Positions 208 through 11,839 of a stretch of DNA of 18,021 nt are shown piece after piece. A program made the translations under genes and the position numbers. Under the pieces are notes generated by a model. It was not told the origin of the DNA and searched no databases. It was given only the letters and a program-made list of their open reading frames with translations. Numbering within the stretch: position 1 is the stretch's first letter; the number at the start of each line of letters is the position of its first letter. The DNA comes from Fidelibacterota bacterium (GTDB lineage: Bacteria > Fidelibacterota > Marinisomatia > Marinisomatales > S15-B10), in NCBI GenBank assembly GCA_046861655.1, contig JBHIAI010000026.1:1-18021 (forward strand). The letters are read 5' to 3'.

Positions 208-349
208 GCCACAACAGGGGGTTTCCAGAGGAGTTTACCCCGCCCTGTCAATTACCCTTTGTTTATTCACGATTCTGTGTGCAGGTTGTAAGGGTGGAAA
301 CAAACTGTTATTGGAAAAACGTAATCCAATAACCGAAAGGAGTTTCGTC

Positions 350-886
350 TTGCTACGGTCGATAAAGCTTGGATTGGTGCTCCCTCTGCTCATGGGATGG
401 CTGCTGATTCATGGTTGCGCGAAAGAAGAAGCGGCGTCCGTGGAGAAAGGAGGCAAGAAAATGGTCGTGAAAGAAGGGGACAGAGTGCAGGTGTTGTATG
501 AAGGCACGCTGAATGACGGAACTGTCTTCGATAAATCCGAACCGGGAGAACCCCTGGAATTCACGGTTGGGGGTGGACAGATAATACCGGGTTTTGAACA
601 AGCGGTAAGAGGAATGAAACAGGATGAGGAAAAGAAGGTAACCATTAAGCCCGAAGACGCTTATGGAGACCGGAATGAGTCTTTGATCAGGGAGTTTCCC
701 AGGAGTTCTCTTCCCGCCGGTTTCAAAGCCGAAAAGGGGATGGTGATCAGGTTGCAGGATCCACAGGGAAGAGCCGTACCGGCAACCATCACGGATATCG
801 GTGAGGAAAACCTCACCATCGACCTGAATCACCCCCTGGCAGGGGAGGAGTTAACGTTCGATATTACCGTCGTCAAGATTGAGTGA
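350..886 (+). CDS. FKBP-type peptidyl-prolyl cis-trans isomerase (SlyD/SlpA-like, no His-rich tail), with a predicted lipoprotein signal
   Basis: Motifs GDRVQVLYEGTLNDGTVFD, GQIIPGFEQAV, PEDAYG, IDLNHPLAGEELTF. TTG350 follows AAAGGAG and gives MLRSIKLGLVLPLLMGWLLIHG-C (lipobox-like). A second in-frame ATG461 has its own AAAGGAGG. Confidence 0.92.
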   Translation: MLRSIKLGLVLPLLMGWLLIHGCAKEEAASVEKGGKKMVVKEGDRVQVLYEGTLNDGTVFDKSEPGEPLEFTVGGGQIIPGFEQAVRGMKQDEEKKVTIKPEDAYGDRNESLIREFPRSSLPAGFKAEKGMVIRLQDPQGRAVPATITDIGEENLTIDLNHPLAGEELTFDITVVKIE

Positions 887-1008
887 GCGGGTCCACAGGA
901 CCCCCATCGTGCCAGCCCCCCGACACAATCACCGGGAGAATCCCACCGATGCTCGTAGTCCGGAGAACGGAAATGTGATGTCGTTCTAATCCCCGGCATC
1001 AGGACTGA

Positions 1009-1407
1009 ATGGCGACCAACAGAATATACAAAAACCTGGGGCTGGCCTTTCTTTACCAGGCTATGGTATCCCTTATTTCCTTATCCCTTATCCTCTACGT
1101 GAGTCCCGCTGGAATCCTAGCCCTTGCCGGAGTGGGCTTACGACCCCTGATCATGAAAAAGCGGGACGTCGAACCAGAACACTGGCCCTGGCACATTTTC
1201 TACTGGGTGGGAAAGATGGCTCTGATTATCACAGGAATCAGTCTGGTTGTGATGTTCCTCTTCTTCCAGCTGTGGGACGTGGAGGCCATTTTCCCAGGTC
1301 TAAGGAAGAGCGGACCTCTCTTCGCACTGCCTTTTTTCCTTTTCATCCATGGCCTGCTTGGAACGGCGTTACGGGATACCTTAACCGGGAGGATGGGGAA
1401 ACGTTAG
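1009..1407 (+). CDS. Hypothetical small integral membrane protein (about 4 hydrophobic segments)
   Basis: 132-aa ORF with AGGA upstream of ATG1009 and several long hydrophobic stretches; no family recognised. Confidence 0.65.
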   Translation: MATNRIYKNLGLAFLYQAMVSLISLSLILYVSPAGILALAGVGLRPLIMKKRDVEPEHWPWHIFYWVGKMALIITGISLVVMFLFFQLWDVEAIFPGLRKSGPLFALPFFLFIHGLLGTALRDTLTGRMGKR

Positions 1408-1603
1408 GCAGGCTTCCGGAAGAAGTTTCGGTTCGATAATCGCTGCACTTGTTGGAATACCTGAGTATTTCTTGAAAGGCTCTAGCTGCCCTGAAAAGAG
1501 GAGGACATCTGGCGCGGAGTCCGGTGCAGCAATGGGGCCCGCACGTTCGTTCGGCATGATGTTCTGATACGGCCGGGATCGAGTACCCGTTGAGGAGGTA
1601 GGC

Positions 1604-2290
1604 GTGAGTTCCGTACAAATGGTTGTCGAAACTTTGAAATCGGAGGCGAGACCGGACCAGGTTAAGGGGATGGCACGTTTCGGAATGGCAGCGGAAGGGA
1701 GGCTGGGGATAGCCGTTCCGGTCTTACGGAGACTAGCCAAGGGGTTAGGGAAGGATCATCAGCTTGCACTGGGGCTGTGGAAAACGGGAATTCCCGAAGC
1801 CAGAATCCTGGCCTCCATGATCGATGAACCTGAAAAACTGACCGACAAACAGATGGAAAGCTGGGTGAAGGATTTCAACTCCTGGGACGTCTGCGATCAA
1901 ACCTGCATGACTCTTTTCGATAAATCCCCGCTGGCCTGGAAGAAAGTCCTGGAGTGGGCGGAGAGGGAAGAAGAATTTGTGAAACGGGCTGCTTTCGCCC
2001 TGATCGCTTGCCTGGCTTGGCACGATAAGGATCGGGATGACGAGGACTTCTTGAGGCTTCTTCCTATGATCAAGCGGGAATCCATAGATCCGAGAAACTT
2101 CGTTAAGAAAGCCGTGAACTGGGCCCTGAGGCAGATAGGAAAGCGGAACCAAGAACTGAATCAGGCGGCCATCAAGACGGGGAAAGAAATCCAGCAGGTC
2201 GATTCCAAAACCGCCCGATGGATCGCTTCCAATGCCCTCCGGGAACTGGAAGGTGCGGCGGTTCGGAAAAGGTTTGAGAACCCAGGTTGA
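1604..2290 (+). CDS. DNA alkylation repair protein, AlkD-like HEAT-repeat family
   Basis: GAGGAGG precedes GTG1604. Motifs GIAVPVLR, EARILA, FNSWDVCD, EEFVKRAAF, DPRNFVKKAVNWALRQIGKRN. Confidence 0.88.
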   Translation: MSSVQMVVETLKSEARPDQVKGMARFGMAAEGRLGIAVPVLRRLAKGLGKDHQLALGLWKTGIPEARILASMIDEPEKLTDKQMESWVKDFNSWDVCDQTCMTLFDKSPLAWKKVLEWAEREEEFVKRAAFALIACLAWHDKDRDDEDFLRLLPMIKRESIDPRNFVKKAVNWALRQIGKRNQELNQAAIKTGKEIQQVDSKTARWIASNALRELEGAAVRKRFENPG

Positions 2291-2319
2291 TGGACTGTGT
2301 CTGACAAAAGGAGGTCCGA

Positions 2320-2556
2320 ATGAATGGTGAAAAAGTAATCCTTTACACCCAGCCAGGCTGACTCTTTTGTGGTCAGGAGAAAGCGTGGCTTTCTGAAAAA
2401 GGTGTTGGTTTCGAAGAAAGGAACATCCTTGAGGATCCGAATTCGATGCAGGAACTTCAGCGGCTGGGGGTTTTCTCAACCCCGGCCACAGTGATTGGCG
2501 AGCAGTTAGTGGTGGGCTTCAACCGGGAGAAACTGAAAGAGCTCCTCGGTATTTAG
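2320..2556 (+). CDS. Glutaredoxin/NrdH-like redoxin with UxxC motif (probable selenoprotein, TGA at 2359-2361 read as Sec)
   Basis: AAAAGGAGG precedes ATG2320. Translation MNGEKVILYTQPG-U-LFCGQEKAWLSEKGVGFEERNILEDPNSMQELQRLGVFSTPATVIGEQLVVGFNREKLKELLGI* (78 aa). The glutaredoxin-like pattern continues on both sides of the TGA, including the STP cis-Pro motif and VVGF. Absent from the ORF track. Confidence 0.88.
2362..2401 (+). promoter_or_regulatory. Putative bacterial SECIS stem-loop
   Basis: Upper stem AGAAAGC (2378-2384)/GCTTTCT (2388-2394) with apical loop GTG starting 23 nt after the UGA. Lower pairing TC/GA and CTTTT (2364-2368)/AAAAG (2397-2401). Confidence 0.65.
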
Positions 2557-2604
2557 GCAGATGGCTGTTCATCGTCCGATCGAGGTGGTAGCCGCTACTG
2601 CCTG

Positions 2605-3015
2605 ATGTGGAGAACTTTGTCCAAAGAATCCGCCCATAACAATAGGATACAGCCGTCACCCAGGGTCACCCACCTCTCCTGGGGACGGGTGGAAGTGGAG
2701 GGCCGGGAAGGGCCCTACAAGGACGCAAAACTCTATCCTGGGGGATCCAGGGAATGGGACTGGAACGAAACGGGAACCCATCACGTGCCGGGTACTCAAC
2801 CGGCCGATGTCCAGGAACTCCTTGATCACGGTGCCCGGGTCATTATCCTTTCCCGGGGCATGCTCCGGCGACTTCAGGTGCATCCCGACACGGTGAAAAT
2901 GCTCGAAGACAGAAGCATCACCCTCCACGTCCTCCAGACCGAAAAGGCCGTCCGGCTGTACAATGACCTCAGGGAATCCACGCCGTTGGGAGCACTGTTC
3001 CACTCCACCTGTTGA
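2605..3015 (+). CDS. Mth938-like domain protein (AAMDC family); start may be TTG2617
   Basis: Motifs LSWG, YKDAKLYPGGSREWDWNETGTHHVPG, QTEKAVRLYN and C-terminal FHSTC match the AAMDC/Mth938 family as I recall it. GGAG precedes TTG2617. Confidence 0.88.
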   Translation: MWRTLSKESAHNNRIQPSPRVTHLSWGRVEVEGREGPYKDAKLYPGGSREWDWNETGTHHVPGTQPADVQELLDHGARVIILSRGMLRRLQVHPDTVKMLEDRSITLHVLQTEKAVRLYNDLRESTPLGALFHSTC

Positions 3016-3020
3016 GATAG

Positions 3021-3184
3021 TGGGGTCACATCTTAAATATTAAGTGTTTGCCTTTCGATCCACTTCAACCCGCTATCGTGTGGGAAAAGTCCGCCTTTGA
3101 ACAGCCGCCCGACAAGTCAATTACTTGCCGTGATTCAATGAAATCTTTTTGGAACGAAAACTTAATATTTAAGATGTGACCCCA
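3021..3184. mobile_element. 164-bp MITE/REP-like non-coding element bounded by perfect 25-bp inverted repeats
   Basis: TGGGGTCACATCTTAAATATTAAGT (3021-3045) is the exact reverse complement of ACTTAATATTTAAGATGTGACCCCA (3160-3184). AT-rich relative to flanking genes, no transposase. The repeat is directly visible; mobility is inferred. Confidence 0.65.
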
Positions 3185-10606: not shown

Positions 10607-11839
10607 ATGGGACCAATGAACCTACACTTTGATTTCAGAGACGTTTTCCGAGCCCCCCGTTTGGCGCTCAGTGGAAAGAAGATCTGGACTCTGCTGGAAG
10701 CCAACATCGTGGGGTATGCAGTGTACTGGATTCTGACCTACGTCTCCCTGGCGGTTTCTGGAATCCCTTTTTCCCAGGCATGGGCGAAATACGGACTCTA
10801 TCCATGTCTGGTGGGAAACGAGGGAAACTGGGCGTCCTACGCGATCTGGACAGCGGGAGTGATTTTCTGGCTTGCGGCCCTGGTACTCGGGGCCACGGCC
10901 GTGTCCCGCATCACCTACAAGCAACTCAAAGGGGATGAATTCTACTCCTCAGGAGACGCCTGGCGGTTTGTGAAGAAGCACTGGCACGCACCGGTGTTTA
11001 CCCATCTTTCGGTGGCCATTATCGCCCTTTTCTTTGTGGTGATGGCCGTCGTATTCGGTCTGATTGGGAAAATACCGTATCTGGGAGAGCTCTTCTTCGG
11101 CATCCCCTATCTTCTCTGGTTTTTCGGATCCGTCTTCGTCGTGTACACAGCCGTCGTCCTGGTGGTGTCCTTCTTCTTCACCCACGCCATCGTAGCCACT
11201 CTCGAAGAAGACACCATGGGATCCGTCTTCCAGAACTATTCCATTACCTGGTCTCAACCCTGGAGAGCCGTGGTGTATCTGGTCCTGTTGGGCGGCCTCA
11301 TCTACGTCGGTGTCACCGTCTTCACCTGGTTTTTGTCCGCAGGATACGGCCTCATCAATCTGGTGTTCGGACACACATGGCTTATGGGTTCCAAACTGGC
11401 CAGTATGATGAGCTGGTCCAGCGATATCGTACTGGATCGGCTGTCTCCGGGTCTCTGGTACCTGGGGTTCTCCGCCAGCCCATCCACCATCATCGACATA
11501 CCCGCAGGGGGTCCCCTGAGCGCGGTGGAATATGTGGGGGGATTCTTCATCGCGGTCTCCCTTTTCCTCGTCGTGGCTTCGGTCATTTCCTATGCCCTGT
11601 CGGTTCAGGTGGTGGGAGAAACCCTGGCCGTGGTAATCTTCAGGAAAAAGACGGATGATGAAAACCTCCTGGAGAGGAAGGACGAAGAGGAACTGGAGGC
11701 GGAAGAAGAGGCCGCACCCGAAGCGCCTCCGGAAGTGGGGAAACCCGAAGAAGAAAAGGCCAAAGCAGAGGCGGCTGAGGAATCCGAGGAACCGGAAGAA
11801 GAAAGTGACGAAGAACCCAGTTCACAAGAAGAGGATTGA
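10607..11839 (+). CDS. Hypothetical polytopic membrane protein with a highly acidic C-terminal tail
   Basis: AAGGAGGG RBS, several hydrophobic helices, and a Glu-rich tail (DEEELEAEEE...EESEEPEEESDEEPSSQEED). Followed by a terminator. Confidence 0.8.
   Translation: MGPMNLHFDFRDVFRAPRLALSGKKIWTLLEANIVGYAVYWILTYVSLAVSGIPFSQAWAKYGLYPCLVGNEGNWASYAIWTAGVIFWLAALVLGATAVSRITYKQLKGDEFYSSGDAWRFVKKHWHAPVFTHLSVAIIALFFVVMAVVFGLIGKIPYLGELFFGIPYLLWFFGSVFVVYTAVVLVVSFFFTHAIVATLEEDTMGSVFQNYSITWSQPWRAVVYLVLLGGLIYVGVTVFTWFLSAGYGLINLVFGHTWLMGSKLASMMSWSSDIVLDRLSPGLWYLGFSASPSTIIDIPAGGPLSAVEYVGGFFIAVSLFLVVASVISYALSVQVVGETLAVVIFRKKTDDENLLERKDEEELEAEEEAAPEAPPEVGKPEEEKAKAEAAEESEEPEEESDEEPSSQEED

What the first reader, a model, noticed from the sequence alone, without database searches (positions are those of the whole stretch)
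2320..2556. Hidden selenoprotein: UxxC glutaredoxin-like gene with a SECIS-like hairpin, missed by ORF calling
Seen: a strong RBS, then 78 codons forming a complete glutaredoxin/NrdH-like protein whose only interruption is TGA (2359-2361), exactly at the N-terminal catalytic Cys position (YTQPG-U-LFC). A 7-bp stem with a G-starting apical loop begins 23 nt downstream. Established: bacterial Sec is decoded from UGA via an immediately 3' SECIS bound by SelB, and it often replaces the first Cys of CxxC in thioredoxin-fold proteins. TGA is a normal stop in many other genes here, so this is not a genome-wide code change. Inference: a Sec-containing redoxin, implying the organism uses Sec.
Basis: partly seen in the sequence, partly recalled or inferred. 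Interest (0 to 1): 0.85.

Follow-up and report, generated by a model that had tools for sequence, protein, structure and literature searches.

The report
Selenocysteine glutaredoxin gene with conserved hairpin
A 78-codon redox-protein gene has a "stop" codon at its catalytic cysteine position, followed by an RNA hairpin conserved across relatives, in a genome that carries selenocysteine-insertion genes, so it very likely encodes a selenium-containing glutaredoxin, which is an already known kind of protein.

Summary
The finding is real but of a known kind. Window 2320-2556 (+) encodes a 78-aa glutaredoxin-fold protein with TGA at the first CxxC position (U14-x-x-C17).

The genome has tRNA-Sec, selB and a TGA-containing selD. 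selA was not found whole; what looks like its 3' tail overlaps selB at a contig edge. Contigs from four DNA runs (one study) keep the TGA.

Of 53 homologous loci, 51 have TGA, 2 have Cys and none has Trp (pattern-dependent count). Behind the TGA, the hairpin's Ala and Leu codons are identical in 39 of 39 distinct TGA genes, one stem pair changes on both sides, and both Cys forms break the stem. In a second phylum, 11 of 11 TGA carriers have selA against 1 of 5 Cys carriers.

The closest structure is the known selenoprotein cGrx1 (7C10). The protein falls below every NCBIfam cut-off. The hairpin alone is unremarkable (-7.1 kcal/mol, shuffle z about 0).

One side result: helix residues AW/EF/GF switch together with the pair that closes the hairpin loop. 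This scan has reported Sec-glutaredoxins on other genomes before. Sec incorporation, reductant and substrate are untested.

The parts
2309..2314 (+). Shine-Dalgarno-like AGGAGG, 5 nt before the ATG
   Evidence: Sequence. A GGAG/GAGG/AGGA word before a start 9-18 codons upstream of the TGA/Cys column was found in 34 of 38 distinct homologous loci, most at 13 codons (loose test, no chance control).
2320..2556 (+). 78-aa glutaredoxin-fold gene, U14-L-F-C17, with cis-Pro-position T54-P55 and G66-F67
   Evidence: AlphaFold model mean pLDDT 95.4; Foldseek best hit 7c10, TM 0.91, rmsd 0.7
2359..2361 (+). In-frame TGA at the first CxxC position, inferred Sec codon
2368..2370 (+). Cys17 codon, likely resolving cysteine
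   Evidence: Invariant in 47 of 47 aligned sequences; role by analogy to cGrx1 (PMC7642778)
2378..2394 (+). SECIS-like hairpin inside the coding sequence: 7-bp stem, GUG loop 23 nt after the UGA, overlapping codons E-K-A-W-L-S

Best explanation
This gene has TGA at the catalytic-cysteine position of a glutaredoxin-fold protein and a conserved hairpin 23 nt behind it, so it very likely encodes a selenocysteine (U-x-x-C) redoxin that likely works as a small disulfide reductase, probably recycled by thioredoxin reductase. Shown: the reading frame, the codon, the hairpin and its conservation, tRNA-Sec, selB and selD in the genome. Inferred from established bacterial Sec biology: SelB carrying Sec-tRNA binds the G-led loop and decodes the UGA. 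Inferred from cGrx1 and Cp9/BC3987: Sec14 at the start of helix 1 attacks a substrate disulfide, Cys17 resolves it to a selenenylsulfide, and a reductant restores it. The reductant I favour (about 55%) is NADPH/TrxB: the genome has a TrxB above cut-off, no gshB or bshC was found, and the protein has the Cp9/YruB-type motifs. The substrate is unidentified; the likeliest class is peroxide-detoxifying or repair enzymes (MsrA, peroxidase-type proteins), about 45%. The confidence below is for Sec recoding plus redoxin function.
For: Machinery: tRNA-Sec 62.9 bits vs cut-off 47, anticodon TCA; selB 334 bits vs 242; selD 382 bits vs 125 with one TGA in its UxxK motif. The first 17 codons of the selB contig end in an ATGA overlap with selB and match the last 17 residues of the same-genus SelA at 7 of 17 positions (counted by eye); selA abuts selB in 9 of the 10 relative loci that held the selB start (13 examined). 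selA is over cut-off in 55 of 61 genomes of the order. Codon: TGA in 5 of 5 close orthologues among 401 phylum genomes and in 51 of 53 loci scoring over 40 bits. Co-occurrence in the phylum of G403: selA in 11 of 11 TGA carriers, 1 of 5 Cys carriers. Hairpin: Ala GCG 39/39 and Leu CTT 39/39 among distinct TGA genes, whereas other conserved 4- and 6-fold residues use their top codon 25-69% of the time (Ser11, in the stem, 79%); both Cys genes break the stem. Outer pair A-U 30, U-A 3, C-G 1, G-C 1, unpaired 3 of 38; covariation score 0.097, 0 of 500 shuffles as high, and above all six slid controls. Other TGA genes of this genome have similar small loops: SelD GUU, SelW-like GUU, HdrA GGUC. Structure: best sequence and fold match is cGrx1, a native selenoprotein (PMC7642778). 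TrxB 396.8 bits vs 343.45.
Against: No peptide, 75Se or RNA evidence. selA is not found whole in this 92.8% complete genome. The isolated hairpin is -7.1 kcal/mol, just short of the -7.5 of the consensus model as given in PMC13188914, and is not more stable than shuffles. Five of the eight pairs never vary and so say nothing on structure; the two measures that count pairs or pair types were not beyond shuffles (187/500 and 62/500), and related sequences inflate the cell counts. The metagenome pattern demanded K-A-W-[LF], so the TGA:Cys ratio is pattern-dependent; 32 of 120 protein hits are full-length Cys forms. My codon-score scan for TGA read-through genes did not recover this gene. For the reductant: cGrx1, the closest structure, is described with glutathione; only gshB (TIGR01380) was searched, not gshA or gshF; no neighbour is conserved to point to a partner.
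Confidence: 0.95

Rival explanations
1. A recent nonsense mutation or an assembly error turned a Cys codon into a stop, so the gene is a pseudogene.
For: TGA is the main stop codon here; the genome has a second, intact CxxC glutaredoxin on C132; selA is not found whole.
Against: The same TGA stands in 39 distinct homologues, most 43-81% identical to this protein, with open frames behind it; four assembled runs agree; hairpin codons are frozen; TGA forms track selA.
Confidence: 0.01
2. TGA is read as Trp or Cys (code change or suppression), not as Sec.
For: 8 of 120 database proteins show W at this column.
Against: No TGG at the column among 53 homologous loci; TGA ends 432 of 867 long ORFs; the only TCA-anticodon tRNA reported by ARAGORN is tRNA-Sec. 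The W entries are more simply gene calls made under code 4 (inferred; their DNA was not seen).
Confidence: 0.02
3. Sec is inserted, but the protein is a true glutathione-type glutaredoxin like cGrx1, or serves metal or metalloid handling as suggested for UXX-star proteins, rather than being TrxB-recycled.
For: cGrx1 is the nearest structure and is described with GSH. Heavy-metal transport genes lie beside 5 of 41 distinct loci (L082, L099, L123, which are near-copies; L093; L110). The review mentions metal-ligand roles for UXX-star Sec.
Against: No gshB over cut-off in 5 of 5 carrier genomes and no bshC; the protein has V-G-F where the classical Grx of this genome has G-G-Y; the other 36 loci showed no such neighbour among the ORFs scanned.
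Confidence: 0.35

Closest known systems
Selenoprotein glutaredoxin cGrx1 of Clostridium (Alkaliphilus) oremlandii, PDB 7C10/7C12/7C13 (PMC7642778)
   Same: Same size and fold (44% identity, TM 0.91, rmsd 0.7); Sec at the first position of the CxxC motif.
   Different: Active site U-L-F-C rather than U-P-x-C; MsrA here has no in-frame stop, so no tandem-Sec pair; no gshB found.
Sec-containing glutaredoxin family (PF00462, UxxC) in the prokaryotic selenoprotein inventory (PMC13188914; PMC1794560)
   Same: PF00462 above cut-off, UxxC, in-frame UGA with downstream hairpin, Cys homologues exist.
   Different: A K-A-W-L-S subfamily that no NCBIfam model claims; database entries are mostly truncated (78 of 120 top hits start at the column after the Sec position).
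Cp9/YruB-type redoxins and Bacillus cereus BC3987 (TIGR02196; PDB 3ZIJ; PMC3720550)
   Same: N-terminal [IV]-x-[ILV]-[YF]-[ST] motif (V-I-L-Y-T), Pro55, Gly66-Phe67, Leu72; best NCBIfam score.
   Different: 61.3 bits against a cut-off of 88.55; Sec instead of Cys; not in a TrxR-peroxiredoxin operon.
Uxx-star glutaredoxin-like (seleno)proteins (NF041212, NF041211, NF047338)
   Same: Small Grx-like selenoproteins; second-best NCBIfam score.
   Different: 50.2 bits against 66; this protein keeps a resolving Cys (UxxC). The defining paper (Haft and Tolstoy 2025) was not available, so its definition was not read.
NrdH-redoxin (TIGR02194)
   Same: Fold, size, G-F motif.
   Different: 46.8 bits against 85.75; no C-[IMV]-Q-C; not in an nrdHIEF operon; no class I RNR small subunit found in 5 of 5 carrier genomes.

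Membership tests
Bacterial selenoprotein (UGA + SECIS + SelB) | In-frame UGA aligned to Cys of homologues | tested here: met
Bacterial selenoprotein (UGA + SECIS + SelB) | Genome encodes tRNA-Sec, SelB and SelD | tested here: met
Bacterial selenoprotein (UGA + SECIS + SelB) | Genome encodes SelA | tested here: inconclusive
   No whole gene; probable 17-codon tail at the contig edge before selB; present in G001, G003, G016 and G360
Bacterial SECIS consensus model (as in PMC13188914 Fig 2 legend) | 3-9 nt loop, 4-16 bp upper stem, G in first two loop positions, loop 16-37 nt from UGA | tested here: met
   3-nt GUG loop, 7 bp, 23 nt
Bacterial SECIS consensus model (as in PMC13188914 Fig 2 legend) | Minimum free energy -7.5 kcal/mol or lower | tested here: inconclusive
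   -7.1 for the isolated hairpin by ViennaRNA; the model's own folding window and program were not reproduced; many homologues reach about -10
Bacterial selenoprotein (UGA + SECIS + SelB) | Sec present in the protein | not testable with these tools
   Needs 75Se labelling or mass spectrometry
Glutaredoxin domain PF00462 | Score above gathering cut-off; thioredoxin fold with CxxC/UxxC and cis-Pro position | tested here: met
   47.6 vs 22.9 bits
Classical GSH-dependent glutaredoxin | Reduced by glutathione; host makes glutathione | tested here: inconclusive
   No gshB over cut-off in 5 of 5 genomes; gshA and gshF not searched; TIGR02181 33.5 vs 90 bits; activity not testable
YruB/Cp9 family TIGR02196 | Score above cut-off 88.55 | tested here: not met
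   61.3 bits; best E-value among 47 members 1.2e-21, which I estimate at under 80 bits
Cp9/BC3987/NrdH group (PMC3720550) | [IV]-x-[ILV]-[YF]-[ST], Pro54, Gly65, Phe66, [LI]71 | tested here: met
   V6-I-L-Y-T10, P55, G66, F67, L72
Uxx-star NF041212 | Score above cut-off 66 | tested here: not met
   50.2 bits; 40.9 on DNA
NrdH-redoxin TIGR02194 | C-[IMV]-Q-C motif, class Ib RNR operon, score above 85.75 | tested here: not met

The most novel reading that the evidence does not exclude
This is an unmodelled, cross-phylum Sec-glutaredoxin subfamily in which the SECIS dictates the protein sequence. Two helix-1 residues switch as a pair (A-W, E-F, G-F) because their codons form the base pair that closes the GUG/GUU loop (C-G, A-U, G-C). 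The mixed state E-W appears only after reversion to Cys. That gives a natural readout of how far an in-frame RNA signal steers amino-acid evolution, and a protein-level mark of Sec ancestry in Cys forms.
Probability: 0.6. Interest if true: 0.42.

Novelty: new member of a known kind. Interest (0 to 1): 0.27.

Why it matters
It corrects an annotation that databases get wrong at scale: 78 of the 120 best protein hits begin right after the Sec position and so lack the catalytic residue. It adds a fifth candidate selenoprotein to this genome beside SelD, SelW-like, AhpD-like and HdrA-like genes. The type of protein and the decoding mechanism are known, so the value is mainly the clean comparative data set: a minimal 7-bp, 3-nt-loop SECIS with frozen codons and paired amino-acid swaps that could be used to test SelB recognition rules.

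Tried and rejected
- Single-sequence folding as evidence: not above shuffles.
- The first background test for hairpins used a threshold that this hairpin itself failed, so it was discarded and rerun with flanking bases.
- The search for related loci on genome contigs gave 2 weak, uninformative loci.
- Plasmids: no match at E 1e-10. Viral contigs: 70 of 70 distant relatives have Cys at the column.
- Neighbourhood: 103 longest non-overlapping ORFs of 110 aa or more from 41 distinct loci scanned with Pfam showed no widely shared neighbour; 161 further overlapping ORFs were not scanned. DUF498 follows the gene only in G000 and G001.
- MsrA as partner: present in 5 of 5 carriers but also in 12 of 14 control genomes, so uninformative.
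- NrdH role rejected.
- Tree of 90 rows and 79 columns is poorly resolved (27 of 87 branches starred): Sec and Cys forms are interleaved, at least 5 changes forced by starred branches, no direction or donor claimed. L156 was left out for an in-frame TAG.
- No RNA holder listed.
- A codon-score scan for read-through genes recovered SelD, SelW-like and HdrA-like genes among many false candidates and missed this gene and the AhpD-like gene.
- Seven of 60 pattern matches scoring 40 bits or less were dropped before counting (5 TGA, 1 TGT, 1 TGG).
- Cluster members and names of P0002-P0005 could not be looked up, and the Haft and Tolstoy 2025 paper was not held, so the Uxx-star definition is known here only from model scores and the review.
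- Two searches for papers on SECIS-driven amino-acid covariation listed none on this family; subscription papers and the BSepDB and review supplements were not seen and may already list it.
- No complex prediction was run, since no partner is indicated.

Full report
**1. Observation.** The window reads AGGAGG at 2309-2314, ATG at 2320, TGA at 2359-2361, TGT at 2368-2370 and TAG at 2554-2556. Read with TGA=U it gives 78 residues with U14-L-F-C17. The standard ORF list has nothing on this frame. The protein is a glutaredoxin domain by Pfam (47.6 bits, cut-off 22.9). It is below every NCBIfam cut-off; the best are YruB 61.3/88.55, Uxx-star 50.2/66 and NrdH 46.8/85.75. The hairpin has a 7-bp stem (2378-2384 with 2388-2394) and a GUG loop starting 23 nt after the UGA, at -7.1 kcal/mol. 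It is not more stable than shuffles. Hairpins meeting the same rule follow 38 of 583 TGA stops of long ORFs in this genome, 5 of 583 with a small GU/GG loop. Alone it is weak evidence.

**2. Not an error.** Contigs from 4 of 4 DNA runs cover the codon with no listed difference there. They come from one study, may include the source sample, and are contigs rather than raw reads.

**3. Machinery.** G000 (92.8% complete) has tRNA-Sec over the Rfam cut-off with anticodon TCA, selB (334 bits) and selD (382 bits) with one TGA at its UxxK site. selA was not found by two models. However, selB starts 52 nt from the edge of contig C100, and the 17 codons before it end in an ATGA overlap and match the end of the same-genus SelA at 7 of 17 positions (counted by eye). 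In 9 of the 10 relative loci that held the selB start (13 examined), selA ends within 9 nt of it. selA is over cut-off in 55 of 61 genomes of the order. I infer that selA was lost at the contig break. Other TGA-containing genes here are SelW-like (98.9 bits vs 88), AhpD-like (94.7 vs 81.8 on a part) and HdrA-like; SelD, SelW-like and HdrA-like have small G-led loops 22-33 nt after the UGA.

**4. Homologues.** Close orthologues occur in 5 of 401 phylum genomes, all with the TGA; 12 weaker hits have Cys. A metagenome pattern that left the codon's third base and all wobble positions free gave 55 loci. With the 5 genome loci, 53 of 60 scored over 40 bits: 51 TGA, 1 TGT, 1 TGC, 0 TGG. These reduce to 41 distinct genes, 39 of them TGA. 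The pattern required K-A-W-[LF], so the ratio is not a census. In the phylum of G403 (Acidobacteriota by the record title of L021), 16 of 401 genomes matched, 11 with TGA and 5 with Cys. selA was found in 11 of 11 and 1 of 5; these genomes are kin and may be incomplete.

**5. The hairpin is under selection.** Among 39 distinct TGA genes, Ala is always GCG and Leu always CTT, while other conserved 4- and 6-fold residues use their top codon 25-69% of the time. Both Cys genes break the stem. On 38 aligned sequences (one truncated locus left out), 94.4% of cells pair. The outer pair is A-U 30, U-A 3, C-G 1, G-C 1 and unpaired 3. The covariation score exceeds 500 of 500 shuffles and all six slid controls, but the pair-count and pair-type measures do not (187/500, 62/500), and five pairs never vary. 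RNAalifold predicts the same stem.

**6. RNA shaping protein.** In the second phylum the motif K-A-W-L-S becomes K-E-F-L-S or K-G-F-L-S. In L155 and L161 the loop-closing C-G becomes A-U with a GUU loop, and in L166 it becomes G-C. The rule is not absolute: L157, L167 and L168 have a mismatch and a larger loop, L156 carries an in-frame TAG, and four P-P-C type genes use a different hairpin further downstream. Of 120 listed protein hits, 78 start at the column after the Sec position, and all 78 have E-F (62) or A-W (16). The 8 with W at the column have A-W 5, E-F 2 and E-Y 1. The 32 Cys forms show 14 different dipeptides, including E-W in 8. I did not see the DNA of these proteins, many are near-copies, and the query was rich in A-W forms. 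The number of independent switches is therefore small and uncounted.

**7. How it likely works.** The model is confident (mean pLDDT 95.4; helix from residue 15). Its best match is cGrx1 (7c10, 44% identity, TM 0.91). cGrx1 is a native selenoprotein with U-P-x-C, proposed as reductant of MsrA and described with glutathione (PMC7642778, passages seen). By analogy Sec14 is the nucleophile and Cys17 resolves. The sequence carries the motifs shared by Cp9/YruB, BC3987 and NrdH redoxins; Cp9 shuttles electrons from thioredoxin reductase to a peroxiredoxin (PMC3720550, passages seen). G000 has TrxB over cut-off. No gshB over cut-off, no bshC and no class I RNR small subunit were found in 5 of 5 carrier genomes (78-95% complete; gshA and gshF not searched). 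I therefore favour TrxB recycling at about 55%. No neighbour is conserved, so the substrate is open; antioxidant or repair enzymes are my best guess.

**8. What is known.** UxxC glutaredoxin is listed among experimentally verified prokaryotic selenoproteins, and UXX-star families among predicted ones (PMC13188914, passages seen). Sec-glutaredoxins and remnant SECIS in Cys forms were reported in 2006 (PMC1794560, passages seen). BSepDB (PMC13326102, passages seen) does not mention glutaredoxin in its main text; its tables were not seen. Haft and Tolstoy 2025 is known to me only as a reference-list entry. Earlier notes of this scan describe Sec-glutaredoxins on several other genomes; none held the K-A-W-L or K-E-F-L words searched. 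One note calls this genome's lineage Marinimicrobia; I did not test that.

**9. Verdict.** A real gene, very likely a selenoprotein (0.95), and a new member of a known kind. It works like cGrx1 and Cp9-type redoxins and belongs to PF00462, but it does not pass the YruB, Uxx-star or NrdH cut-offs. Interest 0.27. The SECIS-linked residue swap is the part most worth following.

Noticed in passing
window 3021-3184: 28-nt inverted repeat (96% complementary) enclosing 108 nt between the DUF498 gene and the next gene, shaped like a miniature transposable element; a partial second copy on C24 near 10738-10785, and contigs in other runs match the arm with different flanks.
   Followed up: partly
G000:C182 near 2723 (+), L241:379-621: SelW/Rdx-type gene with C-x-x-TGA and a GUU-loop hairpin 22 nt downstream; above the cut-offs of NF041051 and TIGR02174 when read through.
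   Followed up: partly
G000:C41 near 36818 (+), L242: AhpD-like gene with C-F-Y-TGA; TIGR01926 above cut-off; its hairpin fits the consensus less well. Already noted by this scan.
   Followed up: partly
G000:C51 near 607 (+), L141: HdrA-like frame of 814 codons with one TGA (C-x-x-U) and a GGUC-loop hairpin. Already noted by this scan.
   Followed up: partly
G000:C100 1-54: Probable last 17 codons of selA at the contig edge, overlapping the selB start.
   Followed up: yes
window 311-3015 versus L023 (G001): In the same-genus genome the FKBP gene sits directly before the glutaredoxin; here a 132-aa hydrophobic ORF with no Pfam or NCBIfam match (1009-1407) and a DNA-alkylation-repair gene (1604-2290) lie between them (the window's FKBP identified by eye).
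   Followed up: no
G025, G039, G051 (genus g17): The three smallest genomes of the order sampled (0.9-1.1 Mb, 97-99% complete) have no selA match, while 55 of the other 58 do: likely loss of Sec use in a reduced lineage.
   Followed up: no
L156 (G413:C193): A TGA-type homologue with an extra in-frame TAG a few codons after the motif, probably a decaying copy.
   Followed up: no
L159, L160, L162, L163: U-P-P-C homologues whose hairpin lies about 11 nt further downstream and has a different sequence, suggesting a separately evolved SECIS.
   Followed up: no
L115, L127: Two low-scoring pattern matches with TGA-Y-x-C inside a frame unrelated to the glutaredoxin profile; may be chance.
   Followed up: no
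G000:C43 and C48: Two near-identical selB-model matches (195 bits each) with equal neighbouring matches, probably duplicated EF-Tu regions.
   Followed up: no
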